The notes under the pieces: generated by a model
Database searches by the model: none
Told to the model about the DNA's origin: nothing
What the model saw: the letters and a program-made list of their open reading frames with translations, nothing else
Assembly: GCF_037042905.1 (NCBI RefSeq)
Contig: NC_087250.1
Location: 9,364,001 to 9,428,000 of the forward strand
DNA length: 64,000 nucleotides
Source: Lytechinus pictus
Lineage: Eukaryota
Reading direction: 5' to 3'
Position numbers and translations under genes: made by a program
Shown: piece by piece, positions 7,526 to 25,793 of the stretch
How the letters are laid out: each line of letters begins with the position of its first letter
How positions within the stretch are numbered: the first letter of the stretch is position 1

Positions 7526-8041
7526 TTATTTTCTTCAAAATATCATATTATTTAACATGGAACTCATGGTTGGTAAACCTCATGTCAAAATAACTTAAGC
7601 GTTGATGTATAATATTATTTTTACGGCAACAAGAAGTGTCACTTCTTGTCCCCATGTCCCTATTTCCCTTCTTCTTCTCGCCTTCATCCCTTTTAGCATC
7701 TATTCCACATTATTCCTCTTGTTCTCTTCTTTTATCCTCTTCTAAACTCTCTTCTAATTATTAGTATTATTATTATTCTCCTTCTTCTTCTCATCATCAT
7801 TCTTCTTCTTCTTCTTCTCCTCCTCCTCCTTTTTCTTCTTCTCCTTCTTCTACTTCGTATTGTTTTCCCTTTCTATTGCACATTGTTCTTCGTCTTCTCT
7901 TCAGAATCTCCCCTTCTGACTTATTATTATCCCGGCTTCTTCACTGTTCTCCATCATCATCATCACCATCACCACTACCACCACCACCACTACCATCATC
8001 ATTTTCATCATATTCGTAGTCTTTGTCTTAAACATGTTTAA

Positions 8042-9650
8042 ATAGACCAGTTCGTAGTTACTTCATGGACAATTTTGGTCAAATGACCTTTCATTTCTTT
8101 CATTATTGTTAAGACAGTGTCAGCATAATTATACCACGTTGTCACAATAACCACAAAGGAGGCGTATTCTAAAGTTAGCTTCCTTTTAATACTTGGAAGT
8201 ATCTCAGTGGTGGTGCTAGCTTGTAGCGTATATTCAACAACTGTGTGTGAATCCTGTAGCAAATAACAAAAATTAAACAACAAAGATTTAGACTCTTGAT
8301 CAAGTACTAATGGTTCCTTTCACATAGTATTACAATGGGTTATAAACTTGGAAATGATGTTAATACTTATTTCACTTGTCAACTGTAACGTGTTATTATT
8401 CATTACACTTTTATGTAAACACTTGTGCTTATCTATATCATTAAAACATAAACTTCTTATTCACTGAAATGTGTTTGAAATGCCATTTGTTTTGTTTCTG
8501 AAAATGACATAAACATCTATTATTATTTATGATCAAACTGCACTATTCAGTTTCTTTTGCAAAGTGTTTAGCAAAGTATTGTAATATTTGTCAAAAAACG
8601 ACTTAATCGAGACTAGATTAAAGCCGAATCACCAAAGAAACATCAGAAAATATTCCTCCGCTTTGAAAACGTGCGCGAAAAATGACCGTACAATTGGGTT
8701 TCAAAGTAATTAGCGTAAGAAAAATAGGTCTCTTATCTCACCTCAAATTTATGAGTTCTTGAACCAAATTAAACAAAATACGTGTTTCCAAATAATTGAC
8801 AAACTATCATAAAACATGTTTGTTTCTCTCATTTGCCTTGAATTACATTAACAACAAATTTGCATGAATAAAACTTTCACTTTCACTCGGTACGCTGTCA
8901 TGTTGAACACGTTTGTATTAACGTTAGTTATGTAATTTTCCATTATCCATCTTTAAAGACAGACCTAAAATTGACCCTAATCACCTTAAATACATTACAG
9001 AAATACATGTAGGAATTAAGCATAAACTACACTGTAATATTAATCGAACAGAATTTAACGTACCTTCAGTTTTGTATTAAATAACGAAGAAAACTCGGGA
9101 TCGACCAAGGTCGATGTACCTTCGAACGATCTTGTTTTAGCTGTGACCTTGCTTTGACCTTGAAGGGTAATAAGTCTAAACTCAAGTACATGCAAATAAC
9201 ACCAAATATTTCAAAAGGCAACAATATCTGAATATCAAACTATGTCATTCTATGACACATTATGATAGGCAGATTTCAAAGCAAGATATTACGTAAGCTT
9301 GCCTAACATAGCATGATGAAGAAATTGAATAGACCAGGTGACTAGAATAGCACACCAATGAACACTTTATCATGTTTATGGAGGTATTTGTTGCATTCCT
9401 ACTTTGAATGCATATCATAGCACGTTGCACAATTTACTTGGCAAACTGTGAAATACCAGTCGTTCGTGGACGCATTGTTGTTTTTGTGGATGTAAATGAA
9501 AACCACAATTCAAAAGAAAATATGAATAATCAACTGGTGCTTATCTCAGTAGATTTTAAACCACCATGTCACTTTAGTACAAATGACCTTCCTCTAATTA
9601 TGCGTAGAATCTTTTGATCATGCGCAGAAAGGAACTACCAACTGGCTTAT
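8042..9650. mobile_element. Non-autonomous DNA transposon, family R (AATAGACCAGTT / AACTGGCTTATT ends)
   Basis: Imperfect ~20-bp TIRs. Internal segments match 47790-48200 (inverted) and 35248-35271. Confidence 0.7.
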
Positions 9651-9701
9651 TGTTCTTGTGTTTTATTTTTGTTATGTTGATTCCTCATCCTCAGAACTAT
9701 C

Positions 9702-9978
9702 ATGGCAGAAGACGGCAGGATGCCACCTCTGTCCAACAGGGACCTCATCAAACTCACCAACGGGCTGGACCAAGACGAGTACTTCAGACTCGGTAGGGCC
9801 TTAGGAGTCGCAGAAGGCATTCTCAGCCATCTGTGGGACCCAACGCAGATGTCGTGTGCTTTGCAGATGGTGCTCCTGTGGAGGGATGATCTTGGGCCTG
9901 AAGATGACCAAAGGGCCATTTTGATCGAGAAACTTTTAGAAGCGGGACTGGAGGACCAACTAGATAAACTATTGAATG
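9702..9978 (+). CDS. NLR coding exon 1: N-terminal Death-fold domain
   Basis: Acceptor tcctcag at 9694, ATG in context atcATGG, donor GTATGT at 9979. Translation ...YFRLGRALGV...ALQMVLLWRD...LIEKLLEAGLEDQLDKL fits the Death-domain pattern. Confidence 0.85.
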
Positions 9979-12900
9979 GTATGTCTTGAAAAATAATTAC
10001 AACTGATTTGGCGATAATTACACACCGTGATTATGAAATGTAGGTTGTACAACTTCATTTCATTTGTAGTGCCAGCAAAATTTCATCTTTTTTTCCAGAG
10101 TGATCTCTAGTTTCCTGAGATTAGTGATCAAACTAAAACATTGTGGTTGGGGTCACCAGGGGTGTTTAATAAAGCTATTCGTAAGTGAAGAGCGACTTTA
10201 AGAACGACTGGTGATCCTTTTTTGTGGTAAATGGTATTCGCTGTTAAATTTTCATTGGTGATTAGTTAGCGCATAAGAAAGGTTCACCAGTCATTCGCTC
10301 TTAACATGCTTAACTTACGAACAACTCAATGAAACGCCGACCAGATTCGGGACCAATCATAAATTACATTGAAGTAATATTCACTCTAGATCTGAGATCT
10401 GAAAAACTGATATTCTCAGTGTAATTCTGGTTCGATCCCTCATTCAATCTGAAACAATTTTTAAATTAAAAGAGTTAACGCTATCTTTTCAAGTAGTCGC
10501 CTAAGGTAATGTGTGATGGCTCAGTATATAAATCAATTCTTATTAAAAAGGAGTAGTTAAAAAAGACCAACGTCGGCGATCTAACGCAAGAAATATGAAT
10601 TTTTCTTCATTATTATGCTTGGTTTTTTAATCAATTTATTGAGGACTTGGGCAATAGTAAAGTTACTAATTTTTTTTATATCATTTCAAGCATCGCCAGG
10701 GCCAACCCCGCCATCTCCAGGACATTCTTACTTCGGAACGACAGACACTACAAGAACAAACGTCCCCGTTTTACCAATGAAACTGAATAGAAAGGACACT
10801 GAGAAGGATAAACTATCCTCTCCTGCAATGGGTCAAAGCTATAGCGAAACTGTTGCTGCTAAGCCCGAACCAGAAAGCCATACTGCTAGGCCAGGACACA
10901 CTGGAGACCGTGGATTTGAACAAGAGTTTGAAGGTCGGTCTAATGATGAAGACGACACTGACGACTCAGACCCGGAAAACTATATCAATGTGTCCAATAG
11001 AGTACTCCACAGAGGATCGAGAACTGTCTCTTTAGCTTTTGGAGGTAAACCAGTTGAGGCATTCCAAGGCTCTCAAGAGAACATGATTCGTGAAGAAGCG
11101 GAGGGTGATGTGGGCGACTCTGAATCGTTCTTACAACCCTCTAACCTTGTCACAGATAGGACAACAGGCGATAACGATGATCTATGCTGCGATCAGGCTG
11201 ATATCCTTCCAGCCACCCTTGAACACACCGATAGCCCAATTAATCCGGATAGCCGTGACAGTGTATCTAGCAGGTTCGACACCAATGAGGCGGTTTATGC
11301 AAAACCATCAGTGTCAATCAAGAACTCCATGGACACCAGAAAACCTGTGGAAATACAAGACTGTACTAAGGTATCTTCAAATCTTGGGTCGGGTAGCAAA
11401 GGACAGGCACGTACTCGTCAGCACGACAATGAGGGTGTATATTGTTTAGAACAAAGCGTTGATTCTCAAGAATCATCTACGGCAGAATGCACGTTACCAG
11501 AATCAAGTACTAGTAAGGTAAGGCCTCCTAAGCCTGCTCGTAAGAAAAAACACCTCTTTCTGCCAGGCAATTCTGAAGTAAATCAGCACGACGAAGAGAC
11601 ACGAAAGGGTGATTTAATATGTAAAGACACACCCCAAACCAGACCAACAGAGCAAAGTATGGCGCCGAATAACACACACATGACTATTGGCAATCAACAA
11701 GAAGAGTCAAAACTGGCAAAGGATCCGAAGCTGATCAGCGATGCGTACGATTCTCCCAGAAAACCAGAAAGGGGAGGGGTTGGAGGAACATCACTGATAC
11801 ACAAAACGGAAAAGACTCCTAATCACACAAATGCAGTCGATACTGATAACTTTACCATAACGCAGCCCATAAACGAAAGATGTTTGATACGAATGGAGGG
11901 CACAGCTGATCAGGAACAGGGAGGTGCCACGATTATTACACCTTCTGAACCAGCTAAACCTTTCCCAGCTAGAGCACCTACCCTTACCAATGGTTCCCAA
12001 GGATCACAGTCGGGTGAAGCAAAGAATATGTTGAGCCCCCATCATGTGAACGGAAATAATAAGAACACAACACCATCGGAGATTTATGATGAACAAGAGC
12101 ACATGTATGCAACAATCCCGGAAGACCAGAATGCAAGGAGACCTGTTGTCCCGTTTAAACCAAAATTACCAGTTGGTTCAGATTTAGCCCCAACTACCCA
12201 GGATCCTTCAAACAGTTTACCGAGCTTAAATGCGCCATCGGGAACAGAAGATAGACCACTGCAGTTAACAAAAACCACACCGGAAGAAGACACTGAACCT
12301 CTTGAACCCGACATCGATAAGACTACGGAATCTTCTCCCCAATTTTCACCAAAACCTCTGTCAGTTGGACATGGGTCATCCAAACCCAGAAGCAAACCAA
12401 CGCAGGTAGCTGGTAATTTGTCTACTCGTTGTAAGACGAAACCACCGCAACAAGCAACGGGCAATGGTTCTCTTCTGAGGAAGACCGCTCCATCGACTCC
12501 TGGATCCACTATGAACAAACTAGGTATGCCCGTGTCTCAATATGTTTGCGTTTTGTACTTGCGTATATGTACCGTGGTGCATTTTATCCCATTCCAGGTT
12601 TGCAAGGGGTAGACTTGCTAGACAGTGCAGAACATACAATAGTTATAGCAGTGCTGCTTATATGCAATCTTGGAATTGGCTTTAAAGCACTACTGTTACA
12701 CAATATATTGTGTATTCAAAACCTCTGAAGCGAGACCAATTAAATTTTTATAGAAGGACATGCAATGAGTTTCCTAGTTACACACAATTAATTGAGAATA
12801 TATATATATATATTTTTTTTTTTTGGGGGGGGGGGCGTGCTGTATGTCCTCAGGTAAGAGAAGAACATGTCAGAGATCAGTCTCACAAATTTCCCCTGTC

Positions 12901-15900
12901 AGGATTAATACCCACCAGCATCCAGCCATATGCGTCTTTTTCTGCTTCCACACATGTTCCGATATGCCTATTTATTACCACAGAACTTCCATCAATTATG
13001 ACTTTTTGGAGGGGTTGTCGAGCTTATGTTTGCTAGTTAAACCATTCAACTACACATTGCACCATGTTTTGATCAACGAAATTCCTCATTACAAACGAAA
13101 GGAAATTGGTCATACCAACGGACAAATGATAACACTCGCAGTAACAGCGTTAATAATGTGTTTAGTAGTAAACCACTTATAACATTAAAGTGGAGGATGA
13201 AAGGCAATTTAAAATCTAGTTATTTTTGTAATTACTATTTCCTCAAAGCATGGAAAGTACAGTAACAAACAAAAACATGTTAATTCTTCCATTGTATTCT
13301 ATTATTTTGGTCGCTACAATGGGGTGCAATACATGTCATAATTATCATATCACAATCAGACTTGGAGGGAAAAAAGCGTGCTCTTTTCTCAGAAAAACAA
13401 AAATATCATTAGATCGCATAATTTCCAATCTATGAATTAAGATTCAAAATTAAGTTTTCAGCTTTTTTTTATTTGCTGGTTTTTGTTACCTTTAATATAA
13501 GGATCCTCGTTCCAGAGTAATAAAGCACTGAGTGAAGACATCCTTCGAGCTTTGGCGGGAGACATCACGGATGGCAAGAAACTCCAGGCACTTGGGCTTG
13601 AACTTGGCTTTAAAGAAGCCGACATGAATGGATTTGAAGCGATGAACCATCGCACAGGCAGCGACCCCGTGGAAGGCACACTTGACATGCTGCAGACATG
13701 GCAATCAAGAGTTTCGCCAGAGGACCAATTGGTAATGTTGAAACACGCCCTCAGGAGGACTGGTCTTACTATGGCTGAAACACATCTGAGATCCACTAAG
13801 AGGCGCAGAGGTGAGATCGAGCATTCATGTATTAACCCGTTGACTCCTGTGTTTCATAAAGCTATTTATAAATTACAAGCGAATTCATGGACGACTGGTG
13901 ACCCTTTCTTATGATCTACATGTTTATCAACTCCATTAGAAATCGTGTGTATCACCTACCACAATAGAGGATCACCAGACGCTCGTAAAGTTGCTCGTTA
14001 CTTACGGACAGCTTTATGAAACACCCACCTGAATTCTTCTTTTCCCATAGGAATACATTTTAGGATCTATCCGTTTCCAGTTCCCCGCTGTGTAGTTTTA
14101 TTTATACACGACAGGAAAAGTAATTCTTAACCATGCTAAAGATTCCATTGACATGCATTTCCCACACAGCCTTAATTCTTGAAATCTCATCCATTATGGC
14201 CGCCATTAAAATTTAAACTGCCTTGGGAATTTAATTTAATTTTAGACATTATATTTCATATTTTTTACATTTGCCCCTCAAACTCTTCCACCAACAATCG
14301 CTCATTCTCTCATCATAAATTGGTTTGGATTTCCGGGGGAAAAGACGCCTTTTTCAATAATTTATCCCGCAACTCTTTGCCTCCTCTCTTATTCAGAAAT
14401 AATATGATTTCCATGATAAACTTTTTCATCTTATCAAAATGATTTTATTTCCTTAATAGATATAACAGGCGTTAGCGTGACAAAGAACTTCACCGTGTCG
14501 GATTGCCGCGAGAAGCTACAATTCCATTACAGGATTGAGACTTGCAAGGGTCTAAAGAAACACGAAAATTTTGCCTCCTATCTCCCAATCGTAGATGTTC
14601 ATCGGGTCGTAAAGCGAGGAAAGAATGTTTATGTGGAGAAGACACCTCTGAAAGATGGGTCTGTCAAAGAAATTTTAAGGACAAGAAAAGATGGTTCATT
14701 GCCGAGCAGGATTGTAATCTTTGGCCCATCAGGAATAGGGAAAAGCACGCTTGTGGCTCAGATGGCGCATGATTGGGCTGAACGAGTTCCTGGATCCCCG
14801 CTGAACGATGTCCTTCTGCTATTCGTCCTCAAGATGAAGTTCATGACTAATCATGGAACCTTGGGGCAGGCGATCGTTAATCAACTCCTAAGCGACGTCA
14901 GAGGATTGACCGCTCAGGGAATCGACCAACTCATCGAGGACAACCAAACGGAATGCATGGTGGTCCTTGATGGTCTGGACGAGTTTAGAGGCGAGGTTTC
15001 TTCTGTCAGGTGTGGTCATGTTCTGCGCGTTCTCCAGAACATCCAACTGCGGACGTGTCGCGTCGTTGTGACTAGCCATACAAGACTCGAAGACTACTTC
15101 AATAAGGAAGACTTGCCAAAGGACTTTCTCAAGTTTGAACTCCGTGGACTTTCCCATGTGCAATCAACATCATTCATACGGTCTTTCTTCGAGGAAAACT
15201 CATTGCACAGAGCCAAAGAGATGATTGTATTTCTAGAGATGAATGACATCATCCGAGAACTGTTGGCCACACCCCTATTTTGTATCATTGCGTGTCACCT
15301 CTGGGAAAGTAATCTTCTTCAGCTTGTCACAACGGAGTCAGAATTCTATGATAGTGTAAATCGTTTCTTACTCAAGCAAAGGGAAGAACAGGCGTCAATG
15401 GTTGCCGGAGACACTGATCTGGAAATAATTGTCCAAGGCATAGGGGAAGTTGCGCTCAATGGTCTCCTTGATGACCCAAACAGACGATTCTTCGGACAAA
15501 ATGACTTTAAGAAGATGCCCTCAGCCCTAGAGAAGGCAACTTCGATTGGTATCCTCAATAAGACATCCCCCAAGAAGCGCGATGAGACTGGAATTGAGTT
15601 CTATCATCGCAACGCGCAGGTGCACTGCGCGGCTAGGTATCTCTCCAAAGACGTGACCTCGAAATCAATCAAGGGAAAGCAGAGTCGTCTGGAGAAGGCC
15701 TTGAAGCAGATGGCAAAGAAGAACCTGGCGGAATTCGGCAGCTTACTACGGTTTACAGCAGGAATAGGAAGCCCTTCAACCAGACTGCAGGTGATTGAAG
15801 CCATCAATTCTGCGGATAATATACCAATAGGTGACAAGACTAGAATGGTACTCGACTGCCTTTCAGAGATTCCTCAACTGGACAAGCCAACAATGTACGT

Positions 15901-18188
15901 GGTCGAACGATGTTTCGAAGGAGGCAACGTTATAATAAACCTTCCAACCCTACACACTACTTTGGGTCTCTACAAACTCCATCCATCTGTAAAAGAAAAG
16001 GTGGGTCCCAATGGTTTATATATAATAACATCTTATTATCTTAATAGTGGGGAATTTTGGCCTTTCTGGGTAAAGCCATCTGAATCCCTTCTTTAGTTGG
16101 ACTTTAACCATTTTAAAATGTCTTCCAGTTGATGGTTTACGTAGTTAACATTTCTTTAGAAGTCCATATCATCCGGGGAATTTTAAAGCTCCATACGGTT
16201 AAATCCTTATCTTGAAAAACATAAATAAGCTATATTAGTACAGGCATTTTTCAACTGTGCATTTTGACTAAAAGTATAACTTAGAATAAAATGATATTAT
16301 CTTTTCTGTCGTTTAGCAAGATTGTGAAATATTTGTTTAGTAATGTTGACCACTTTATCCGTTAAGGGTGCTATAAAGTTTTGATTAAATTTTATTGACA
16401 TCGCTATCGCTGTCTTTATTTCATAACCGCATTTCCTACTATCATGATTAACATTATTACAAACATAATGAAACTATATCAAGAATGAACTCGTTAAACT
16501 TGTTCCAGATAATTTTTTGTAAATTTATTATCGAGGTGTTTGATTTCTATTTCAAAACTCCTCTTTATAGATACGTGGCTTGAAGATCCAGGGTTCTTTC
16601 ATGGCTGACCTTGTAGCCAAGAGGTTATCAACGGCTCTCCAAGGGTGTTGTGACCTACTCAAGCTCGAGTTTGCTGATTTGCAGAATGCAGCATATCCTC
16701 TGATCCTGCTCCTGCTAAACAAGCTCTCACTTCATCTCTTCCCCGATGGCGCCACGTCAATTCTTCCAGACCTCCATCAGACTATATTCAATGGAGTAAG
16801 CCTTCCATTTTTTTCTTGTTCACAAAACCCCATTTCCTAACCATCCTATACTTTTGATAATGATAAAATATAACTAAATATCAATTTGTTTCACTATCAT
16901 CTTTATTTCAACACACACACATAAGTGCACACCTAGTTATTAAGAATGCGTGTAGCATTTCCATTTATTTGAATGCAGGATAAAAAAGCATTGTCGATTA
17001 AATGCCTTGCTCACGGACATAGGTGCCGCGACCGAGGATCGAACCCCGGTCTTTCTATATATAGCCAGGCGCCTTAAACCACTCGACTACGGCACCTCAC
17101 ACGTACCCCCCCCCCCCCCGCCGGTCGCGAAATTATTTTTCCCACCGCAGTTCTGGACCAACATATGAATATTCATGACTTGCGTCTTCGGAATAAGAGT
17201 ACGCATGCGCGTGGACTTCATCTTCATCTTTGCCTCGATCGATTTATATGTTGGTCCAGAACTGCGGTGGGAAAAATAATTTCGCCCCCCGGTCACACAC
17301 ACCCTTACATATTGCTGATATATATTGAAAGTGTTTTTCAATGAAATGCTATATGTCGATACAATTCATAACATGGAACATTTTTATCAGGCCGTGTGCA
17401 TGGAAAACAAGATCTGGAACTGAGTATAGGTAATCCGCACGTTAACCCAAACATAAAACCCAACCTCATTAACTGAATAAAGCCTTATCATTGTCTTTAC
17501 ACTATTTTGAACCAGAATCTCTATTACAATCCTAACTCTAACCCTATGCCCTCTGAGATATCAAGACCGGGGAAAATGTCGCAGGAGCAAATGTCGTGTC
17601 ACCGGTGAGATTGTTCCATGACATTTGCTCAGACACCACTATCATTAAGGATAAATTAAACAGACAGAAAATAATAGCTGTGACTGAGATTTCGTTTCTT
17701 TTTCATCAAGCTGCGGATTGTCGACCTCTCGGATTGCAGTCTATCACCAGCAGTGACCTGTGTCCTGTGGACTGCTCTAGCAAGATGCCCAAAGATTGAG
17801 CTGATGTCTGTAAAGAACTCCACGATCCTCGGCAAAGACCTCCCCAATCTCGGTTGCATCGCGGACCTCCAGGCGAATCTCCGCTCACCCATCCTCCATG
17901 ACGAGGTTGTCTGGCTGGCCAGTGTCCTAGGGGACCCCGAGAGCTCTACGAAGGTGAAACTGACCATCGGCGATGCAGGAGACGGATCCTTACGGCGTGT
18001 AGGACTTGGGAACCAAGAGCACATAGTGATGGCTGGTGACAGAATGGACCTCAATAACGCAACGGAAAATACCATTAAGGTTCTCAGTGTGCTACCCGAC
18101 ACGTACAGAAGAAAGGTATTGTGGACCCCCCTTATATGCGCTTCCAACATCATTATATATGAAACTACTTCTACCTCTACTACTGCTG

Positions 18189-18227
<39 letters not shown>

Positions 18228-21200
18228 TATACATGTAATACACCGCTACTGTTGCTCCTTCTTTTACTATACTGATACTAATACTACTACTTCTACTACT
18301 ACTACTTTACTACTACTAAGAGTGTTATTCCTACCATCTAGAGTAGTAGTAATAGTATTAATCACTTGTAATGTACCGTTCTAGCACATCATTCCGACTC
18401 GCAACAATCGGATCGGTACCTTCCTTCAACTTCGCCCGTATAATGATCATTCTCTCACCTCCTCCTTGGTCATCTTTTGGGAGATTCACTCCGTCCTACT
18501 TAAGCCGGCCAAGTATAGTCCTTCTATGGATTGCAGCCCATCGTAACGTATTACATCAACCTGCCAACGTTTACCAATTGCCTTCACTAAATATGGTAAA
18601 AAATGAAAACAAAGATACCAATTAATACTAATGTTCAATTCCAGGTTAGGAAACTCTGTATCAGTGGAACACGCTTCAGCTATGACCTGACCCATCCACT
18701 TCTTGACTTTGTCCACTCCTTAATAAGACTTGAAGTCATCGCCACGGAGGGAACGAACATCCCTGGGGAACTCCAACAGCTCCAAGTCTTCAAGGGGTCA
18801 TCCCATAGGTACGTCTACACATATATACCTGTAAAGTGACACTGCATCGAAACTCACCCTCGCGTTGGAAAGAATACGGTACCACACAACATGTACAAAG
18901 TGGCCCGTATTCCGAACTCGGTTTTTATTTAAACTCTGGTCTACAGTCGAGGTTTATGTATGGATAGCCAATGGGGACATAAATCTCTTAACAGTAGAAG
19001 TTCAACGTAGCTCATTTGACACTTTAATCATTCTGAACTGTCTGGGAAGGATAAACAAGATATATGACTTCACCACTAACGCAATGGGATGAGCACAGCA
19101 AGCATTAGAAACGTACAAACAAAATTGTAACATTTGTGGCTTCCCTTAATGTTAGCATATAGAAGACCATTGTCTTATATAAGTTTATCTGAGTTCAGAA
19201 TACGGGCCAGTGTGTCCACAGTGCTTTCCCACAGTTAAAATGATCCGATTTAAAAGTGCGAATTAAGATAGTGCTTTCACACTGACGATACAATGACAAC
19301 GCAAGCGTAGAACAGTGTACTTAACATTGCATTCACAACGTCAGATAAAATGCTCAAATTTAACAGAGTAGATATGATTTGATATTGTACTCAGCACTGT
19401 AAACATATTTTAGGATATTGTTTAAGATAAAGCACGGTTAGGATGGATGAGGATGTGTCCGCGTGAGGTTACATGGACCAGCATCCTTATCTTATAATGT
19501 TATAAAGAATATAAGACGTCCAACTTGTACTGAGTATCATTTTGATCATCGGCTGTGTTTATGTAAAAAAAAACATTTTGATTTAACTAAACTTCCCATA
19601 TATGTATATGAAAAAATTATGAAATAAACACTTTGAGATATATATACTTACAAATATAATTATGGTTCGGTGTGGATTGCAAATGGAATTTGAACATGGC
19701 AGTTGGATTGCCAATGGAAGTTATTGGTGGCGCCAGTGGTTCTGAGACTCTTTCATCATTCTCCTGAAGAGGGCACGAACACACTTGTCCAGACGTCGAG
19801 GTTGGGTGGTCCTTTTTTTATGGCCAACACTTGCCCAAGAATGATACATGGTGTACCGTGAAACCTACAACTATATATGTTCCGGTATCCCCATCTTAAT
19901 CTTAAGAATATAAGACGTCCAACTTGTACTGAGTATCCTTCTGATCATCGGTCGTGTTTTCAATACACCGCCACAAATCTGTAAAAAGGGCATCAAACTG
20001 CGCATATTTGTAAATCAAACATTAACTAAATAACACTGCTATATATGTACCGTATATAGTTCGGTGTAGATTGCAAATGGAATTCGAACGTGGCAGTTGG
20101 ATTGTCAATGGAAGTCATTGCATCGTGGCGCCATGCATGATTCTGCCGTTGATCCTGCAACTCTGTAATCATTATGGCCCGTATTCTGAAGTCAGGTTTA
20201 AGTTAAACTCAGGTTTAAAGTTGTGGTTTAAGTATGGACAGCCAAAAGTATCAATTTTTTTTATTAAGTTGTACGTTCTTATGTTTGCTGTGCTCTTTCT
20301 TGATTCATCGATGGTGAAGACATTTTCTATATATACTTCCTAGCCAATTATGAATGATTTGAGAGCCAAATGAGCTGAAATATTATATCCCTACTGTTAG
20401 TGATTTATGTGACAATTGGCTGTCCATACTTAAACCACAACTTTAAACCCGACTTCAGAATACGGGCCTATGTGTTTTCCTTTTTAGAGACATGAACCAA
20501 CTGCCAAGCTTAGATCCAGACGGTGTCCTGACGGGATGCGTATCGTCCCCTCTTCGGGAGGAAGAATTCGAACGGCTCAGTAGTGTGTTCAACTACAGCA
20601 GAACGACGACCCTTAAACAGGTCCATCTCCTGATCGAGCACGACAGTAGCTCTGAGGAGTTTAGGGAGATGCTTGTCATCGACGAAGATAACATAGACCT
20701 CTCAAACGTGTCATCGGCATCCATTGAAATCCTGAAGATGATTCCGCCGTCGTTTAAGCAAAAGGTAATTGAATGATTCACAAGTTGCCGGGTTGCTAAA
20801 TCTACTATCTACCCAACACCCCTACCCACTGTGTCAAGCTACATTCGGGAGTCCTCACACAATGAAGCAGAAACGACACAATACGACAAAGAACAGCCGG
20901 GAGGCCCTTGTCGAAAATTGGTGAACCAGAACAAGAGTTTTGTCCTTAGTTTCGGAGCTGACGAAAAATTGCAAATATGTCGTTTGTTGTACGAAACTGC
21001 TGTCTTTATTTGCCAATTTTCGACAAAGGCTTCTTGGTTGCTCTTTGCCATGGAGGGCGTTTCAGTTTTTTTTCTATGCTTCTGATTCCATTCTGTGCTG
21101 CGATGCGAAGACTCCCTATTTAGGAAATGATCACCTCACACTGCTACACATAATATTGTTATCCCGGAATGCTTTCATCAGCCAAGGGGTAGTATAGGTG

Positions 21201-24200
21201 TCCTAACACATGACCCTTGAATGTATCAAACTAAAGTAGTGTGGCTAGATTCAGGTAAAGCAAGTCAATCTTTGATAAACGCCCTCTTTGTTTTGTGGAC
21301 GTACACACACTCACCCACATACACGACAAACACACTCACGTACACATACATGTATGTATATATATATAGGTGAAAAAATTGTAAAAGTATGTTATTCTTT
21401 GCACTATGTAGATGCATTTCGCTAGAATCAAGAACTGCACACTGACAGACGAGCTTTCGCACCAGTTGTCCCAGGCACTCCAGTCGATGATAGAACTCGA
21501 GATGTGTCTGTCTGAGAACAGGTCAGTGTATGCCGATATTTAGACCCGTATTCTTGACTCGGGTTTAGATTAAACCCTGGTTTAAAGTTGTGGAACAACT
21601 ATGGAGAGCCAATGGGGGCACAGATATTTATAAGTACAGTCCCATGTATAAACTTACACAACACTCAAATCATTCATAACTGCTGAGAATGATAACTGAA
21701 AGTTTTTTTTTATTATTATACAAGCGAATGAAAACAAAATAGTACACGTTAGAAACACACTACATAGACAGAATTGTTGAATTTGTGGCTCACCATTTAG
21801 CACAGAGTTAGACCGTAGTCTAAGTTAAACCCGACTTCAGAAAACGGGTCTTACAGTTTAATATAAAGTTACGCTGGACTCTGCGATCGATTGGAATGCA
21901 CGTGCGGCAAAGAATGCAGCATGTTATAGATTATTGTGTGAAGATGAGAGTCACACTTAAAATACCAAACCTTAGCACTGCGGACCCCTCTTAATACCTG
22001 GTTCTCGCTTTCACGATTCTCGCCTCGATTGAAAAGGTGATCTTAATCGTGTATAAATGATAGAAGTGATCGTAACAGGTCGTACCAGATCAGTCGTGGT
22101 AATCGTATTGATCGCAGGAAAAAAAATGAATGGTTCAAAAATTCTCACGATCAGTTACGGACGGCCGGTCGTGGCATTCGTGGCGGATCACATAGCAGTG
22201 GAAACGAGGCATTTGTGTCAAAGCTCACCGTGATCAAAGTGCCATAGGAGGCTCGATGAACTTATCCTGGGATCCACACTGTTAACTCAAATTAAGCGTG
22301 AAGATGATACGCTGGTGGCATTTCTACAGTGTTTCCACATAGGCCCGTATTCTGAGGTCGGATTTAACGTAGACCACGGTCTGAATCTGTGCTAAAATTA
22401 TGGCAAGCCAAAAATATCAAAAAAAATTTTCTTTTATTTATTTTGCTCACTCCTAATTCTTGAATGGTGAAGACAATTAACTTATTTATCATTCCCGGTC
22501 GGCTTAAGATTGAGTCAAGAGTCAAATGGGCTGATAAATTGGACATCTGCTGTTTTGGATTTCTGTCACAATAGGATATCCATAGTTAAACCATAACTTT
22601 AGAATAATGGCCAAGTGTTAATGTGAAAGTGTGAATACCCTAGTCTATCATTGACCTAGAACGAAAATTAAAATTAAGGTGGTTTCACATTATGATTTGC
22701 ATTGTCACCACACTGTGATGAAGACACTGTATTCCGTCCAGCAGGGGTATATTTACAATGATCCTAAAGGCCACCGCACACCTTACGATTGTCCGATTTT
22801 GGAACAAATCGCATTTTGCTCATTTTCTGAAATTGTGAATGGAACATATCATTTTATTTGAGGTTAAAATTAATTGAAAGAATACTAATACAACCATTTT
22901 GAAAGATTGCAAGCCTTTATTTTGGAGTAAAGGCCAAATTAGTTTCAAATCGTAGCCAATCGTACGACTGCTATGACGTCATTACGACTAGATATTAAAT
23001 TTGCCTTTATTCTAAGAAGGATGATAGCATAGTCACAGATTTGTACATAGGTATTCGTACGATGATTTCGAACATTACGCAGTAAGATATTCCAAGTCTC
23101 AATATTAGCATCAAATTCTACTACGTTTTATTCCAAAATTAGTTGCAGACCAATAGTAAGGTGTGCGGTCGCCTTAAGATTATTCTTCTTGCATTCGACT
23201 TAAAGAAACCATAGAAAAAACCCAGAGAACGACCATACAAGCAAACCAAATCATTTTTAATTTATCATGACACATGCGTCAGTGAAGCCAAGCCCCCAAA
23301 AATTGCTGAATGGTGAAAAGATCATGTGAAATCGCAGCTTCCACTAATGGTTAAAGAGATAGGGTTGCAATAGGGTTTTATGTTAGAATTGGGGTTAGGT
23401 TAGGATAGGTAACACTATTAAATCTAGGTCATTCCATTTATGTGTGGAATTAGCAGCAGAGTAAATGTCACGGAACCCCACAAATCCCGAAGTACAATGC
23501 ATACTATGTTTCTTGAATATATGTGGGTGTTGGATATGGAAATTAAATGAAAAACAAATATCATTCTATTGTTATGATGGAAGCCTTTGAATGGTTCTTG
23601 GTGATTGTGTAATAGATTATTATACATGTAGAAGAAAAAAAATCGGTATAAAAATATGTATTGAGATACAGTGCATAACATGAAATGTGAATAAAATTAT
23701 TTAAAAAGAGCGATCCTGATATCCTGCTAATAATTGATGTATAACGAAACAAATATCAATTATTTCTATCATAGTATCCTTGGTCGAAAAGCCTTCCACT
23801 TGAAATCTGTCACTGTACTTGACGTTGGCCGTTTCTCGTCGCAATGTTTCGACTGGGAGTGGCTTGCCAGTGCAAAGCTGCTCGAAGAACTGCACCTCAC
23901 CTTCGAAGCATCCCCGCCATCCACGCCCACATCCCCTTCCACACCGGCTGCAGCGGACATGGCGACCTCCCCACTGTCTGCAAAGAACCGGATCTACGAA
24001 GAAATCCACGAAAGAAAGGACACTGCTGACGTTGAGGGCGCTTCAGATGAGGACTTCTTTCTGACAACCGGAAGACTGGTAATGAAGAAGATGTCTTCCT
24101 GTAGCTTATCAGTGATGCTGCATCTACCACAACACATGAAAGATGAGGTATGTCTACAAGGCAAAGCCCACTAAACTTATGATAGGGTACTTTCTGCGCA

Positions 24201-25325
24201 TGTCCAGTTCCCCAAAATTAGGACTGACCATGCACTGACCGATTTCGTGTCCCAATCTACCGAGTACCCATTTACTACACATGGGCGGAGAGTGGAAAAT
24301 GTAGATAAACGCCTCGCCAAAGGACGCGAGTGCTGCGGTGGAATTAATTTTTGCCTCGGACATTGTGCTTTAAAGTCCAGAGACTATATATTTCTATATA
24401 ACAAAATATATATGACCTATCAGTCACCCCCAAACCAACAATAAGATTAGCCAAAATAGTTTTCAGAAAATAAAAATGATAGAATTATCTAATATTTGAA
24501 AGAATAGTTATCCTCTTACTGTCAACAATTAAACTTCTAATGTTAAGTTTTAAAAAAACCGAGATAAAAGATATTTGACTATTCTTGTTCCTGACTGCTT
24601 GGAATTTCCAAGGAGATTTGTACATTGTGCACATATCACGCTTTAGTGAACTCCAAGCCTTGTTGTCTCTTTGTAAAGCTCTCACCGAGTTTCTTTTCCA
24701 TTCGATGAAGTAGTTGAAGGGATTATTTTTTGATCAATTTTGAAAATACATAATTTTAAAGAAATATATTATATCAGTTTAAATAAAAATCTTAAAATTC
24801 ATTTTGGGCGACCATTGTGTATTTTGGGGTGTCAGGTCACACACTTTTGTACTCTTTTAAAACTGGATCGCATGAATGAAATGATATGAAAAGTAGTTTG
24901 GTCTGTGGAATAGTACCATCTAAAATAGTATTGTTGTATTTCCGAGTTTACTTATCTCTATCAGGGTTATGTCTCCCCATTTCTCGACTTTTTTTCTCCC
25001 TCTCTCACCACCCCTCCCCCTCTCTCTCTCTTTATCTCTCTCTCTCTAACTATCCTTCTCTCCCTCACTTTCACTCTTATATGCCTCCTCCTTCTTCATG
25101 TTCTTCCTGTAATGTATACATTACCTTCTATTTCATCAGTTGCGTTTCGTGCGGATTCGTTCAACGAAGCTCACCGTGGACGTCCTCAATCGTCTCTCCG
25201 ATGTCCGGAACTCCTTCAAACATCTCAAGCCGCTGTCGCTTCAAAACCTGTATCGTAGGCCAATCAAGCACGGATGCATCATGCAACCAGGTTCATCCGA
25301 CCCCGTACTTGGCCAGTGGGACTGA
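9702..25325 (+). CDS. NLR-family gene (Death - disordered linker - Death - NACHT - atypical LRR-like region), 11 coding exons, 1899 aa
   Basis: Exons 9702-9978, 10691-12523, 13502-13810, 14460-16000, 16571-16795, 17711-18115, 18645-18808, 20488-20764, 21412-21521, 23775-24147, 25140-25325. All introns are GT-AG, phases match (1,1,1,0,0,0,2,0,2,0), total is 5700 nt ending in TGA. Walker A GPSGIGKS and Walker B VVLDGLDE are present. Confidence 0.88.
10159..10338. mobile_element. MITE family C (ggggtgtttcataaagct TIR)
   Basis: Palindromic element with copies at 13847 and 39436. Confidence 0.8.
10691..12523 (+). CDS. NLR coding exon 2: 611-codon low-complexity S/T/P/E/D-rich linker
   Basis: 1.8-kb uninterrupted ORF bounded by tttcaag acceptor and GTATGC donor, phase 1-1. 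Confidence 0.85.
13502..13810 (+). CDS. NLR coding exon 3: second Death-fold domain
   Basis: LSEDILRALAGDI...LQALGLELGF...TLDMLQTWQ...LKHALRRTGL. Donor GTGAGA at 13811, phase 1-1. Confidence 0.85.
13847..14026. mobile_element. MITE family C
   Basis: gtgtttcataaagct ... agctttatgaaacac TIRs. Confidence 0.75.
14460..16000 (+). CDS. NLR coding exon 4: NACHT NTPase with HD1/winged-helix/HD2 region
   Basis: Walker A GPSGIGKS (14723-14746), Walker B DGLDE (14969-14983), TPLFCIIAC and FYHRNAQVHCAARYL motifs. Donor at 16001. An alternative in-phase acceptor would start the exon at 14469. Confidence 0.95.
16571..16795 (+). CDS. NLR coding exon 5 (LRR-like)
   Basis: ctctttatag acceptor, GTAAGC donor, phase 0-0. 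IRGLKIQGS...LLKLEFADL. Confidence 0.75.
16925..17090 (-). mobile_element. tRNA-derived SINE
   Basis: Minus-strand tRNA-like head (A box gagtggtttaagg, B box ggttcgatcc) followed by a non-tRNA body. Confidence 0.65.
17711..18115 (+). CDS. NLR coding exon 6 (LRR-like)
   Basis: LRIVDLSDCSLS and IELMSVKNSTI resemble LxxLxLxxC/NxL. Phase 0-0. Confidence 0.8.
18164..18320. repeat. (TAC)n microsatellite
   Basis: Imperfect trinucleotide run. Confidence 0.9.
18645..18808 (+). CDS. NLR coding exon 7 (LRR-like)
   Basis: ttccag acceptor, GTACGT donor. VRKLCISGTRFS...LEVIATEGTNI, phase 0-2. Confidence 0.75.
18902..19208. mobile_element. MITE family D (GGCCCGTATTCTGAA TIR, 3-bp TSD, PIF/Harbinger-like)
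   Basis: TIRs with AGT duplicated on both sides. Confidence 0.85.
19483..20133. repeat. Local tandem duplication (~250 bp units at 19483-19735 and 19892-20133) separated by a Penelope-like fragment
   Basis: aagaatataagacgtccaacttgtactgagtatc and gattgcaaatggaatt..ggcagttggattg each occur twice. Confidence 0.8.
20176..20468. mobile_element. MITE family D
   Basis: TIRs with TAT TSD. Confidence 0.9.
20488..20764 (+). CDS. NLR coding exon 8
   Basis: ttttcctttttag acceptor, GTAATT donor, phase 2-0. ...IDLSNVSSASIEILKMIPPSFKQK. Confidence 0.78.
21412..21521 (+). CDS. NLR coding exon 9 (not in ORF track)
   Basis: MHFARIKNCTLTDELSHQLSQALQSMIELEMCLSEN. Donor GTCAGT, phase 0-2, needed to keep frame between exons 8 and 10. 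Confidence 0.72.
21543..21850. mobile_element. MITE family D (diverged)
   Basis: gacccgtattct ... agaaaacgggtc. Confidence 0.8.
22342..22612. mobile_element. MITE family D (diverged)
   Basis: ggcccgtattctgag start, body homologous to other copies. Confidence 0.75.
22769..23173. mobile_element. MITE family E (ggccaccgcacaccttacga TIR)
   Basis: TIRs, and a highly similar copy at 43872-44264. Confidence 0.88.
23775..24147 (+). CDS. NLR coding exon 10
   Basis: tttctatcatag acceptor, GTATGT donor, phase 2-0. LEELHLTF followed by a P/S/T-rich insert and RIYEEI. Confidence 0.8.
25140..25325 (+). CDS. NLR terminal coding exon 11
   Basis: tttcatcag acceptor, phase 0. LRFVRIRSTKLTVDVL...GQWD then TGA. 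AATAAA at 25788. Confidence 0.75.
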   Translation: MRFVRIRSTKLTVDVLNRLSDVRNSFKHLKPLSLQNLYRRPIKHGCIMQPGSSDPVLGQWD

Positions 25326-25742
25326 AAAGTACCCAATTTGAAATCGAGAGGAATCTACAAAAGAACACTTCTCTCTGAAGTCCGGAGCTCCTTCAAACAT
25401 CTCAACCTGCTGTCGCTTCCGAACCTGTATCGCAGGCTAATCAAGTACGGATGTATACTGAAACCAGGCTCATGTGACCCTTCACCTGGCCAGTGGGACG
25501 GACCACAGGAATCCCCTCTCAATCCAAAATGAAATTAAGAGGAATCCGCAAAAGACCACTTCTCTCTGAAGTCCGGCGGAACTCCTTCTAACATCTCAAA
25601 GTGCTATCGCTTGAGAACCTGCATCGCAGGCCAATCAAGTAGGGATACTGTTATCAGGCTCGTCCGACCCTATCCTTTGCCAATGGGACCTAAAAAGAAC
25701 CCCCACCCTCTCCATCCATATGAAATTAAGAGAAATCTACAC
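25194..25742 (+). repeat. Three tandem ~180-190 bp copies of the NLR coding 3' end
   Basis: Units start at 25194, 25371 and 25562 (ctctc.ga.gtccgg..ctccttc.aacatctcaa). Confidence 0.9.
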
Positions 25743-25787
25743 TTTGCAGGCTCGTTCGATACGAAACGTAAGAGTCGCAGAGAACAG

Positions 25788-25793
25788 AATAAA
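25788..25793 (+). terminator. Candidate polyadenylation signal of the NLR gene
   Basis: AATAAA about 460 nt after the stop codon. Confidence 0.4.

What the first reader, a model, noticed from the sequence alone, without database searches (positions are those of the whole stretch)
10691..12523. NLR linker looks like a phosphotyrosine/SH2-SH3 docking platform
Seen: six of the eight Tyr in this exon sit in kinase-substrate-like contexts: ENYINV (10981), AVYAKP (11296), GVYCLE (11440), DAYDSP (11746), EIYDEQ (12085) and EHMYATI (12106). Proline-basic motifs are also present: RPPKPARK, RPVVPFKPK, PQFSPKP. Established: pY-x-N binds Grb2-type SH2, pY-x-x-P binds Crk/Nck/Abl-type SH2, and PxxPxR/K binds SH3. 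Inference: the NLR may be wired directly into tyrosine-kinase signalling, or carry an integrated decoy for pathogen kinases and phosphatases.
Basis: partly seen in the sequence, partly recalled or inferred. Interest (0 to 1): 0.75.

Follow-up and report, generated by a model that had tools for sequence, protein, structure and literature searches.

The report
Disordered sea-urchin NLR linker, few conserved motifs
The exon is a real, expressed but fast-evolving floppy spacer in a sea-urchin immune-receptor gene, and only two of its six "kinase-like" tyrosines are conserved between species, so it is not a multi-site docking platform, although one tyrosine motif (ENYINVS) is strikingly conserved and worth testing.

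Summary
The exon (10691-12523, + strand) has eight Tyr at the quoted coordinates and the quoted Pro-basic motifs. It is a true coding exon of an echinoid Death-like / linker / Death / NACHT / LRR-like gene. Transcript contigs hold it, and the L. variegatus and S. purpuratus orthologue models include it.

- **Disorder and rate:** AF2 mean pLDDT is 33 and Pfam finds nothing. The linker is 76% identical to L. variegatus, against 95% for NACHT. Within-species pN/pS is about 1.0, against 0.05.
- **Chance:** Tyr-motif counts do not exceed composition-matched shuffles (p 0.10-0.39).
- **Conservation:** three of six flagged Tyr are lost in L. variegatus (Y203→P, Y251→D, Y353→N). Y251 is also a Y/D polymorphism. 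Y466 is Q in Strongylocentrotus.
- **What survives:** only Y98 and Y473 are invariant. ENYINVS, behind an acidic cluster, is the longest invariant run (144 of 20000 shuffles). Its core YINV equals the Grb2-binding tail motif of the IgM Fc receptor.
- **Further support:** PxxPx[RK] sites are enriched in the three full-length linkers tested, with turnover. A C-terminal IYE[ED]I is also conserved.

Best reading: a disordered spacer with a few conserved short motifs. SH2 docking at ENYINVS is plausible but unproven, and an LC3-interacting motif fits equally.

The parts
9702..9978 (+). Exon 1: start codon and N-terminal Death-like domain (DD1)
   Evidence: ATG at 9702. A GT donor follows 9978, and its last base G completes the codon GCA (Ala) with 10691-10692. 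93.5% identical to L. variegatus P0010 residues 1-93. No Pfam hit at E<=0.1. Weak similarity to DD2: BLASTP E 0.004, 28% over 60 aa.
10691..12523 (+). The finding: 1833-nt phase 1-1 exon encoding a 611-residue disordered linker
   Evidence: Splice signals. X1 transcript contig covers 10690-11840 and stops mapping exactly at the acceptor; X2 contig covers 11010-11910. Orthologue models include it. Pfam 0 families. AF2 mean pLDDT 33.4, with 605 of 611 residues below 50. Uversky hydropathy 0.384, below the boundary of 0.426.
10765..10782 (+). PVLPMK: the only PxxPx[RK] site conserved in position in L. variegatus and S. purpuratus
   Evidence: PVL is invariant in all four sequences. The Logan orthologue P0002 lacks the PMK part.
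10951..10995 (+). Island A: acidic cluster DD-x-DDS-x-x plus ENYINVS (residues 88-102). Candidate Grb2-type pYxN / ITT-like site, or LIR.
   Evidence: ENYINVS is the longest invariant run of the linker: 7 residues, reached by 144 of 20000 shuffles. 9 of 11 residues of DSDPENYINVS are invariant, against 5 for the next best window. Highest AF2 pLDDT block, 45.
11296..11298 (+). Tyr203 (AVYAKP): not conserved
   Evidence: P in L. variegatus, H in S. purpuratus and P0002. The neighbouring AKP is invariant.
11440..11442 (+). Tyr251 (GVYCLE): not conserved and polymorphic
   Evidence: D in L. variegatus; the segment is absent in S. purpuratus. The X1 contig has T>G at 11440, TAT>GAT, i.e. Y>D.
11746..11748 (+). 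Tyr353 (DAYDSP): not conserved
   Evidence: N in L. variegatus, D in S. purpuratus and P0002.
12067..12180 (+). Island D: TTPSEIYDE-QEHMYATI...PVVPFKPKLPVGS (residues 460-497)
   Evidence: Y473-A is invariant in four sequences. Y466 is Y only in Lytechinus and Q in Strongylocentrotus-type sequences. V486, P488, P494 and G496 are invariant. L. variegatus has a 16-residue insertion between the two Tyr.
13502..13810 (+). Exon 3: Death domain (DD2)
   Evidence: Pfam PF00531, E 9.2e-5, 22.9 bits against a cut-off of 22.6. Junction codon G+GA = Gly matches the orthologue. 90.3% identical to L. variegatus.
14459..16036 (+). Exon 4: NACHT NTPase module (Walker A GPSGIGKST)
   Evidence: Pfam PF05729, E 3e-15. 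95.1% identical to L. variegatus. X1 contig covers 14458-15998.
16571..25322 (+). Downstream LRR-like and C-terminal exons (about 16571-16831, 17711-18118, 18642-18809, 20486-20762, 21410-21519, 23773-24145, 25137-25322)
   Evidence: tblastn of P0010. GT..AG joints 18805>20485 and 20762>21410 occur in X1 and X2 contigs. No Pfam LRR hit at E<=0.01 on the orthologues.
23992..24006 (+). IYEEI in a second P/S/T-rich insert of the C-terminal region
   Evidence: Conserved as IYEEI in L. variegatus and IYEDI in S. purpuratus P0012. The local pattern IYE-x-I-x-ER is invariant in 3 of 3 species.

Best explanation
The exon is a genuine coding exon of an echinoid NLR with the architecture Death-like domain / ~610-residue linker / Death domain / NACHT / LRR-like C-terminus. 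Every orthologue model seen includes it, so it appears constitutive.

The linker is intrinsically disordered and evolves almost neutrally. Most of it, including four of the six flagged tyrosines, is replaceable spacer. Its main role is probably to tether the N-terminal Death-like domain flexibly to the Death-NACHT core.

A few short linear motifs embedded in it are under constraint:
- (i) An acidic, Ser/Thr-containing cluster followed by ENYINVS.
- (ii) QE-x-x-Y-A-[ST], followed about 12 residues later by P-[FY]-x-x-x-x-P-x-G.
- (iii) PVLPMK near the N-terminal end.
- (iv) A maintained but positionally shifting excess of PxxPx[RK] sites.

The most likely function of (i) is a regulated docking site. 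Its best match is a Grb2-type phospho-Y-x-N SH2 ligand, like the immunoglobulin-tail-tyrosine motif.

Shown here: exon reality, disorder, rate contrast, which residues are conserved, motif statistics. Inferred only: phosphorylation, the identity of any binding partner, and the tether role.
For: **Gene model.**
- Splice sites and phase.
- X1 and X2 contigs carry GT..AG exon joints of this gene. An 1800-nt X1 contig maps to 10690-11840 and ends exactly at the acceptor.
- X1 depth on the exon is 23.5-39.4. The next intron bin is 0.51 and the NACHT bins are 33.4.
- L. variegatus XP_041466952/XP_041466982 and S. purpuratus XP_030846992/XP_011660871 contain the linker between DD1 and DD2.

**Disorder.**
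- 0 Pfam families.
- AF2 mean pLDDT 33.4 with no secondary structure.
- Composition below the Uversky boundary, and no hydrophobic segment.

**Rate.**
- Identity to L. variegatus by exon: 93.5 / 76.4 / 90.3 / 95.1% for DD1 / linker / DD2 / NACHT.
- X1 against the window: linker 7 nonsynonymous to 2 synonymous (pN/pS 1.02); NACHT 1 to 6 (0.05); Fisher p = 0.041.

**Conservation.**
- 88 of 611 residues are invariant in four sequences.
- ENYINVS is the longest invariant run (144 of 20000 shuffles reach it).
- Y98 and Y473 are invariant. Y203, Y251, Y353 and Y466 are not.

**Pro motifs.** PxxPx[RK] observed vs expected: window 5 vs 0.67, L. variegatus 5 vs 0.66, S. purpuratus 3 vs 0.41 (p = 0.009).

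**Chemistry of YINV.**
- The FcmuR ITT-like motif SDDYINVPGQ recruits Grb2 in a Tyr-dependent way (PMC10058298, passages read).
- The peptide EpYINVSQV binds GRB2 with Kd about 4 uM (PMC11391413, passages read).

**Second IDR.** A conserved IYE[ED]I lies in another disordered insert of the same protein.
Against: - **No direct evidence of binding.** Nothing here shows phosphorylation or any partner.
- **Few lineages.** Only two (Lytechinus-type and Strongylocentrotus-type, 4-7 sequences) support the conservation claims. The invariant run could partly reflect shared ancestry in a short tree.
- **The motif is ambiguous.** ENYINVS with its acidic cluster equally fits [W/F/Y]xx[L/I/V] LIR motifs. 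The conserved D-[ST]-D-D-S just upstream could be a caspase or CK2 site.
- **Conservation is wider than an SH2 contact needs.** All seven residues are invariant.
- **The precedent differs.** ITT motifs have D at -1 and sit in membrane-receptor tails. Here -1 is N and the protein has no membrane segment.
- **The PxxPx[RK] excess may be compositional.** It may just follow from a KP dipeptide bias.
- **The pN/pS contrast is thin.** It rests on 16 differences from one contig pair.
- **Some runs do not help.** In X2 the intron bin after the exon has depth 9.38, similar to the exon (6.5-10.6), so X2 does not mark the 3' border. Two raw RNA-seq runs (X21, X22) put depth of at most 0.91 on the exon and 0 on the NACHT bins.
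- **The AF2 alignment was shallow** (7 rows).
Confidence: 0.7

Rival explanations
1. The linker is a multi-site phosphotyrosine/SH2 plus SH3 docking platform, with six pTyr sites (Grb2-, Crk/Nck/Abl-type and others), that wires the NLR into tyrosine-kinase signalling.
For: - All six contexts exist, and 6 of 8 Tyr have D/E at -4..-1.
- PxxPx[RK] is enriched.
- Two Tyr are deeply conserved, and a conserved IYE[ED]I lies in the C-terminal insert.
- Language-model look-alikes include Tyr-phosphorylated adaptors (NYAP2, BANK1), but at 0.76-0.77, below the tool's 0.9 bar, so these are leads only.
Against: - Tyr-motif counts are within shuffle expectation.
- Both YxxP sites and GVYCLE are absent from L. 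variegatus and S. purpuratus, and Y251 is a segregating Y/D polymorphism.
- S. purpuratus has 0 YxxP and only 4 Tyr in its linker.
- Tyr is among the least conserved residue types against L. variegatus: 5 of 8.
Confidence: 0.05
2. The conserved Tyr islands are LC3/Atg8-interacting (LIR/AIM) motifs. An acidic, phosphorylatable cluster followed by Y-I-N-V (and Y-A-T-I, Y-E-E-I) would link the NLR to selective autophagy, with no need for Tyr phosphorylation.
For: - YINV, YATI and YEEI all fit the [W/F/Y]xx[L/I/V] consensus quoted in PMC8634866 (passage read).
- Island A has the upstream acidic/Ser run that I recall as typical of LIRs (DD-x-DDS-x-x-E).
- An NLR (NLRX1) is discussed with a LIR motif in PMC10837482 (search listing and abstract only).
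Against: - In S. purpuratus and P0002 the second island is Y-A-S-T, with no hydrophobic residue at +3.
- The LIR-like regex is not enriched: 2 observed vs 2.7 expected.
- The invariant N at +2 is not required by a LIR.
- IYE[ED]I has no acidic run upstream.
Confidence: 0.15
3. The linker is a bait or tripwire: a fast-evolving disordered segment that pathogen effectors (proteases, kinases, phosphatases) modify, in the manner recalled for the NLRP1 linker.
For: - Linker pN/pS is about 1.0 against 0.05 in NACHT.
- Amino-acid divergence is about five-fold higher than in NACHT.
- Indels occur between species.
- Recent gene duplicates exist in both L. variegatus and S. purpuratus.
Against: - pN/pS near 1 is what relaxed constraint alone gives, and no excess over 1 was shown.
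- No similarity to any host protein that could be mimicked: 1 hit in 1.84 billion representatives, and it is an orthologue; 0 Pfam families.
- No FIIND or other module that would convert cleavage into activation.
Confidence: 0.08
4. Island A is conserved for a reason that does not involve the tyrosine as a phospho-acceptor. Examples are a caspase-type D-x-x-D|S cleavage site that would detach DD1, a CK2-phosphorylated acidic cluster, or an intramolecular contact with a Death or NACHT domain.
For: - D88, D89, D91, D92 and S93 are invariant along with ENYINVS.
- D-[ST]-D-D-S fits DxxD|S, and S93-x-x-E96 fits the CK2 pattern (both consensus patterns are recalled, not from a call).
- Seven consecutive invariant residues exceed a typical SH2 footprint.
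Against:
- AF2 gives no sign of a folded or docked element, though only the linker alone was modelled.
- These roles can coexist with a pTyr role.
Confidence: 0.12

Closest known systems
Echinoid Death-NACHT-LRR NLRs (the expanded sea-urchin NLR family)
   Same: Death domain directly upstream of a NACHT NTPase, with a repeat-like C-terminus. Death-NACHT-LRR is named as the sea-urchin architecture in PMC2858798 (passages read). Orthologues are annotated only as 'uncharacterized protein' in L. variegatus and S. purpuratus.
   Different: An extra N-terminal Death-like domain is separated from the canonical Death domain by a 435-636-residue disordered linker. No Pfam LRR hit at E<=0.01. I found no description of this linker: search searches returned nothing on it, and supplements were not consulted.
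Immunoglobulin-tail-tyrosine (ITT / ITT-like) motif, DYxN, of mIgG/mIgE and FcmuR; EGFR pY1068 Grb2 site
   Same: The core Y-I-N-V is identical to the FcmuR motif DY385INV / SDDYINVPGQ, with acidic residues upstream. That motif recruits Grb2 when phosphorylated (PMC10058298). EpYINVSQV and VPEpYINQSVPK peptides bind GRB2 (PMC11391413).
   Different: Position -1 is N, not D. The motif sits in a cytosolic NLR linker, not in a membrane-receptor tail. Phosphorylation and Grb2 binding are untested. This is a resemblance in how it may work, not homology.
LC3-interacting region (LIR/AIM) motifs
   Same: [W/F/Y]xx[L/I/V] core (PMC8634866), preceded by an acidic/Ser cluster.
   Different: The second island loses the +3 hydrophobic residue in Strongylocentrotus. 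Nothing links this NLR to autophagy.
Multi-site tyrosine-phosphorylated scaffolds (Gab, LAT, BANK1, NYAP; recalled)
   Same: A long disordered P/S/T-rich region with Tyr motifs and PxxP sites. Weak language-model resemblance, 0.76-0.77.
   Different: Only 2 of 8 linker Tyr are conserved. No PH/PTB/TM targeting module. Scores lie below the tool's evidence bar.
NLRP1 disordered linker acting as protease 'tripwire' (recalled, no call)
   Same: A rapidly evolving disordered segment N-terminal to the NACHT of an NLR.
   Different: No FIIND/UPA-CARD module. No evidence of cleavage or of positive selection.

Membership tests
NLR (NACHT-containing STAND receptor), echinoid Death-NACHT-LRR type | NACHT NTPase domain with Walker A | tested here: met
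   PF05729, E 3e-15, 56.9 bits against a cut-off of 26.7. GPSGIGKST is in the ORF 14420-16096.
NLR (NACHT-containing STAND receptor), echinoid Death-NACHT-LRR type | Death-fold effector domain N-terminal to NACHT | tested here: met
   PF00531, E 9.2e-5, 22.9 bits against a cut-off of 22.6, for 13501-13914. The margin is narrow. On the L. variegatus orthologue the same domain scores 20.2 bits, below the cut-off.
NLR (NACHT-containing STAND receptor), echinoid Death-NACHT-LRR type | C-terminal leucine-rich repeats | tested here: inconclusive
   No Pfam LRR family at E<=0.01 on P0010 or P0011. LRR-like strings (LRIVDLSDCSLS...) are seen by eye only.
Grb2-type SH2 ligand / ITT-like motif | Y-x-N core, conserved | tested here: met
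   Y98-I-N100 is invariant in 7 of 7 aligned sequences.
Grb2-type SH2 ligand / ITT-like motif | D at -1 (DYxN) and location in a receptor cytoplasmic tail | tested here: not met
   Position -1 is N. Acidic residues lie at -2 and from -4 to -10. There is no hydrophobic segment in the linker: maximum KD over a 19-residue window is 0.15.
Grb2-type SH2 ligand / ITT-like motif | Tyr is phosphorylated and binds Grb2 SH2 | not testable with these tools
   Needs phosphoproteomics or a peptide pull-down.
Multi-site pTyr docking scaffold | Several Tyr in SH2 consensus contexts, conserved among orthologues | tested here: not met
   2 of 6 flagged Tyr are invariant and 3 of 6 are lost in L. variegatus. 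Counts are not above shuffles.
Class II SH3 ligand cluster | PxxPx[RK] motifs above chance and maintained | tested here: met
   5 vs 0.67, 5 vs 0.66 and 3 vs 0.41 in three species. Only PVLPMK is conserved in position. KP dipeptide bias is a possible trivial cause.
ITAM | YxxL/I - x(6-12) - YxxL/I with conserved spacing | tested here: not met
   Y466 is followed by DEQ, with no L/I at +3. Spacing to Y473 is 7 residues in the window but 23 in L. variegatus. Y466 is Q in S. purpuratus. The consensus is recalled.
LIR/AIM | [W/F/Y]xx[L/I/V] with acidic upstream residues, conserved | tested here: inconclusive
   Met for Y98 in all sequences. For Y473, met in Lytechinus-type sequences but not in Strongylocentrotus-type (YAST). 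Atg8 binding is not testable.

The most novel reading that the evidence does not exclude
An echinoid NLR carries two deeply conserved, textbook-optimal phosphotyrosine ligands in two separate disordered inserts. One is ENYINVS, a Grb2-type pYxN with a core identical to the FcmuR Ig-tail-tyrosine-like motif. The other is IYE[ED]I, a Src-family-type pYEEI. A maintained cluster of PxxPx[RK] SH3 ligands accompanies them. On this reading a cytosolic innate receptor would be directly coupled to Src/Syk-Grb2 signalling. That would be an ITT-like signal amplifier in an NLR, predating the vertebrate antigen-receptor use of the motif.
Probability: 0.2. Interest if true: 0.7.

Novelty: new member of a known kind. 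Interest (0 to 1): 0.3.

Why it matters
Sea urchins have hundreds of NLRs whose signalling is essentially unknown. If the conserved ENYINVS and IYE[ED]I tyrosines are real SH2 docking sites, they would give the first concrete, testable link between an invertebrate NLR and tyrosine-kinase/Grb2 signalling. They would also name two residues to mutate.

As it stands, the main value is negative. Most "kinase-like" Tyr and YxxP motifs in such disordered linkers are chance matches that do not survive comparison even with a closely related urchin. Motif spotting in one sequence therefore overcalls heavily.

Tried and rejected
- **Wrong frame.** Translation at 10691 gave stop codons. It was repeated in frame from 10690.
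- **Protein search, near-length.** P0001 gave no hit at E<=0.01 among 6381 candidates.
- **Exhaustive representative search.** It gave a single hit, P0002. The L. variegatus orthologue was not represented there, so that library under-reports relatives.
- **Sequencing-run search.** No RNA holder listed. 20 rows hold part of the stretch, 4 hold half or more of its words.
- **Alternative donor idea.** I asked whether the ENYINVS codons are conserved because they hide a 5' splice site. The DNA reads AAT|GTGTCC, a poor donor. Rejected.
- **Cassette-exon idea.** The exon is phase 1-1, so it could be skipped in frame. However, no exon-skipping joint was among the 15 joints listed (90 more were not shown). 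The 10296>14000-14008 joints lack GT..AG, carry inserted letters and lie in high-copy repeats. All six full-length orthologue sequences read (P0003, P0010, P0011, P0012, P0015; P0014 was not read) include the linker. Not supported.
- **ESM Atlas.** Best score 0.88, below 0.9. Leads only.
- **PDB sequence search with DD1.** Only a chance hit (E 0.82).
- **Earlier findings of this scan.** Nothing returned.
- **Literature.** The search NACHT + SH2 + docking + tyrosine phosphorylation + invertebrate gave 0 papers. The search for sea-urchin Grb2 and the passages read did not document an echinoid Grb2. Its existence is assumed from general knowledge.
Full report
**1. What is at 10691-12523**

The window is animal DNA (GC 0.29-0.44, split genes). 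On the + strand lies one gene, whose exons I located from ORFs, splice signals and an orthologue:

- **Exon 1 (9702-9978).** It starts with ATG and encodes a Death-like domain.
- **The finding's exon (10691-12523).**
- **Death-domain exon (13502-13810).** Pfam PF00531, E 9.2e-5.
- **NACHT exon (14459-about 16036).** PF05729, E 3e-15, Walker A GPSGIGKST.
- **Seven further exons down to about 25322**.

The finding's exon is bounded by AG (10689-10690) and GT (12524-12525). It is phase 1 at both ends and has 611 codons without a stop. The split codons reproduce the orthologue's junction residues...LLN-A-SPGP... and ...MNK-x-G-SSFQ....

**2. The observation**

Against 5000 composition-preserving shuffles the Tyr motifs are unremarkable:

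| Motif | Observed | Shuffle mean | Fraction of shuffles reaching it |
|---|---|---|---|
| Y.N | 1 | 0.46 | 0.38 |
| Y..P | 2 | 0.80 | 0.19 |
| Y..[ILVMF] | 2 | 1.31 | 0.39 |
| Any of the three | 4 | 2.44 | 0.20 |
| D/E within -4..-1 of Tyr | 6 | 3.72 | 0.10 |

The proline motifs are enriched. P..P is 13 vs 6.0 (0.003). P..P.[RK] is 5 vs 0.67 (0.0006). [RK]..P..P is not enriched (2 vs 0.67; 0.14). The regular expressions are my simplified renderings of recalled consensus motifs.

**3. Is the exon in mRNA?**

The run search listed no holder on record as RNA. I laid two contig sets (X1, X2) and two raw RNA-seq runs (X21, X22) on 8001-28000.

Evidence that X1 and X2 are transcript assemblies of this gene:
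- Their contigs carry GT..AG joints of this gene: 18805>20485, 20762>21410 and further pieces.
- These joints coincide with the orthologue's exon borders.

Evidence on the linker exon:
- An 1800-nt X1 contig maps to 10690-11840 and stops mapping exactly at the acceptor. Its other 649 nt were not among the pieces listed.
- An X2 contig covers 11010-11910.
- X1 depth is 23.5, 26.1 and 39.4 on the exon bins, 0.51 on the following intron bin, and 33.4 on the NACHT bins. This suggests that most transcripts include the exon.

Evidence against, or neutral:
- In X2 the intron bin after the exon has depth 9.38, like the exon (6.5-10.6).
- X21 and X22 give depth of at most 0.91 on the exon and 0 on the NACHT bins. 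The gene is nearly silent in those libraries.

**4. Relatives**

- The exhaustive representative search found one protein, P0002 (422 aa, E 4.5e-8).
- The word-indexed search found nothing of similar length.
- Among longer proteins it found L. variegatus LOC121417364 (P0003, 1868 aa, 76% identity over 98% of the exon). Its near-identical neighbour is LOC121417343 (P0010, 1924 aa).
- With P0002 as query it found S. purpuratus LOC115926429 (P0011). That cluster also holds LOC100892949 (P0012 and P0015, 1735 and 1736 aa).
- All of these have DD1-linker-DD2-NACHT.

The window therefore comes from an echinoid close to, but not identical with, L. variegatus.

**5. Rate and disorder**

Identity to P0010 by exon (tblastn):

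| Exon | Identity (%) |
|---|---|
| DD1 | 93.5 |
| Linker | 76.4 |
| DD2 | 90.3 |
| NACHT | 95.1 |
| Later exons | 81-97 |

MAFFT gives 489 of 611 identical window residues for the linker.

Within the species, X1 differs from the window as follows:
- In 10690-11840: 9 differences, 7 nonsynonymous and 2 synonymous, pN/pS 1.02.
- In 14458-15998: 7 differences, 1 nonsynonymous and 6 synonymous, pN/pS 0.05.
- Fisher p = 0.041. The counts are small.

Evidence for disorder:
- Pfam finds nothing in the linker.
- AF2 on a 7-row alignment gives mean pLDDT 33.4, with 605 of 611 residues below 50 and no secondary structure. The two highest blocks are residues 91-100 (45) and 481-490 (41).
- Hydropathy is 0.384, below the Uversky boundary of 0.426, and there is no hydrophobic segment.

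**6. Which motifs are conserved**

I aligned four sequences: the window, L. variegatus, S. purpuratus and P0002. P0002 was cut at residue 395 to drop its read-through tail.

Overall, 400 window residues align to S. purpuratus and 88 of 611 are invariant.

Fate of each Tyr:

| Tyr | Context | L. variegatus | S. purpuratus / P0002 |
|---|---|---|---|
| Y98 | ENYINV | Y | Y / Y |
| Y473 | HMYATI | Y | Y / Y |
| Y466 | EIYDEQ | Y | Q / Q |
| Y203 | AVYAKP | P | H / H |
| Y251 | GVYCLE | D | segment absent |
| Y353 | DAYDSP | N | D / D |
| Y14, Y51 | not flagged | Y | unalignable |

- Y251 is also Y/D polymorphic: 11440 T>G in X1.
- As a class, the flagged Tyr are invariant in 2 of 6 cases against a background of 14.4% (p = 0.21). 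They are identical in L. variegatus in 3 of 6 cases against 80%.

One island stands out. ENYINVS is the longest invariant run of the linker: 7 residues, reached by 144 of 20000 shuffles of the invariance flags. DSDPENYINVS has 9 of 11 residues invariant, against 5 for the next best window. The upstream D88, D89, D91, D92 and S93 are also invariant in the 7-row alignment.

The second island is QE-x-x-Y-A-[ST], followed by V-x-P-[FY]-x-x-x-x-P-x-G.
- Its +3 residue is I in Lytechinus-type sequences but T in Strongylocentrotus-type sequences.
- L. variegatus has 16 extra residues between Y466 and Y473.
- An ITAM-like pair is therefore excluded.

The PxxPx[RK] excess recurs in L. variegatus (5 vs 0.66) and S. 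purpuratus (3 vs 0.41, p = 0.009). It is weaker in P0002 (2 vs 0.49, 0.08). The sites differ, and only PVLPMK is shared in position. A KP dipeptide bias may underlie the excess.

**7. Outside the exon**

A second P/S/T-rich insert in the C-terminal region holds NRIYEEI (23992-24006). It is conserved as IYEEI in L. variegatus and IYEDI in S. purpuratus.

**8. Interpretation**

The exon encodes a disordered, nearly neutrally evolving spacer that holds a handful of constrained short motifs. A six-site docking platform is not supported.

The ENYINVS island is a credible regulated docking site:
- Its YINV core equals the FcmuR ITT-like motif (DY385INV; SDDYINVPGQ). That motif recruits Grb2 in a Tyr-dependent manner (PMC10058298, passages).
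- An EpYINVSQV peptide binds GRB2 with Kd about 4 uM (PMC11391413, passages).

The same island also fits other readings:
- The LIR consensus [W/F/Y]xx[L/I/V] (PMC8634866, passage).
- Its acidic part fits caspase DxxD|S and CK2 patterns (both recalled).

I put about 0.2-0.3 on genuine SH2 docking at Y98, 0.15 on LIR, and the rest on other or combined roles.

Tyrosine phosphorylation of inflammasome components is known in mammals (PMC7432435 and PMC6186804, listings and abstracts only). The idea is therefore not exotic, but a conserved YxN site in an NLR linker has not been described in the searches I ran. Supplements were not consulted.

**9. Verdict**

- Observation: confirmed.
- Interpretation: partly supported.
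- The gene is a new, uncharacterised member of the echinoid Death-NACHT-LRR family with an unusual DD-IDR-DD N-terminus.
- Interest is modest (0.3). A testable bolder reading is given under the novel case.

Noticed in passing
window 23992-24006 (+), exon about 23773-24145: NRIYEEI lies in a second P/S/T-rich insert of the C-terminal region. The YEEI core matches the Src-family SH2 optimum (recalled). It is conserved as IYEEI in L. variegatus and IYEDI in S. purpuratus, with a conserved EDF-x-L about 20 residues later.
   Followed up: partly
window 12085-12108 vs L. variegatus P0010: L. variegatus has a 16-residue insertion (PRHILNQGGSLRGKVQ) between the two C-terminal linker tyrosines. The window's species lacks it. 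S. purpuratus has a shorter related stretch.
   Followed up: partly
orthologue records: Both L. variegatus (LOC121417364 and LOC121417343, on the same 47.8-Mb contig) and S. purpuratus (LOC115926429 and LOC100892949, on contigs of 42.6 and 52.4 Mb) have two copies of this gene at 90% identity or more. These are recent duplications or assembly duplicates. The window holds only one NACHT ORF.
   Followed up: no
window 10002-10668, 20007-20673, 22675-23341: These intronic bins have summed contig depth from about 5,000 to over 20,000 in X1 and X2, and many non-GT..AG joints. They are probably high-copy, transcribed repeats inside the NLR's introns.
   Followed up: no
window 39629-40102 (-): An ORF with an SRCR domain (PF00530, E 7e-16), probably an exon of a scavenger-receptor gene on the opposite strand.
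   Followed up: no
window 56299-57123 (-): A reverse-transcriptase fragment (PF00078, E 5e-8), probably a non-LTR retrotransposon remnant.
   Followed up: no
window 7697-8041 (+): Low-complexity Leu/Ser/His-rich ORFs just upstream of the gene. Many X21 and X22 reads end loose at 8041, and joints 8100>9258 lack GT..AG. Unexplained; possibly a repeat or a UTR-related element.
   Followed up: no
P0006 (Logan orthologue), aligned to window residue F489: The aromatic residue of the conserved P-[FY]-K-P block is N in one of the four P0002-cluster sequences read (SVAPNKPRSPVG). That position is therefore not strictly constrained.
   Followed up: no
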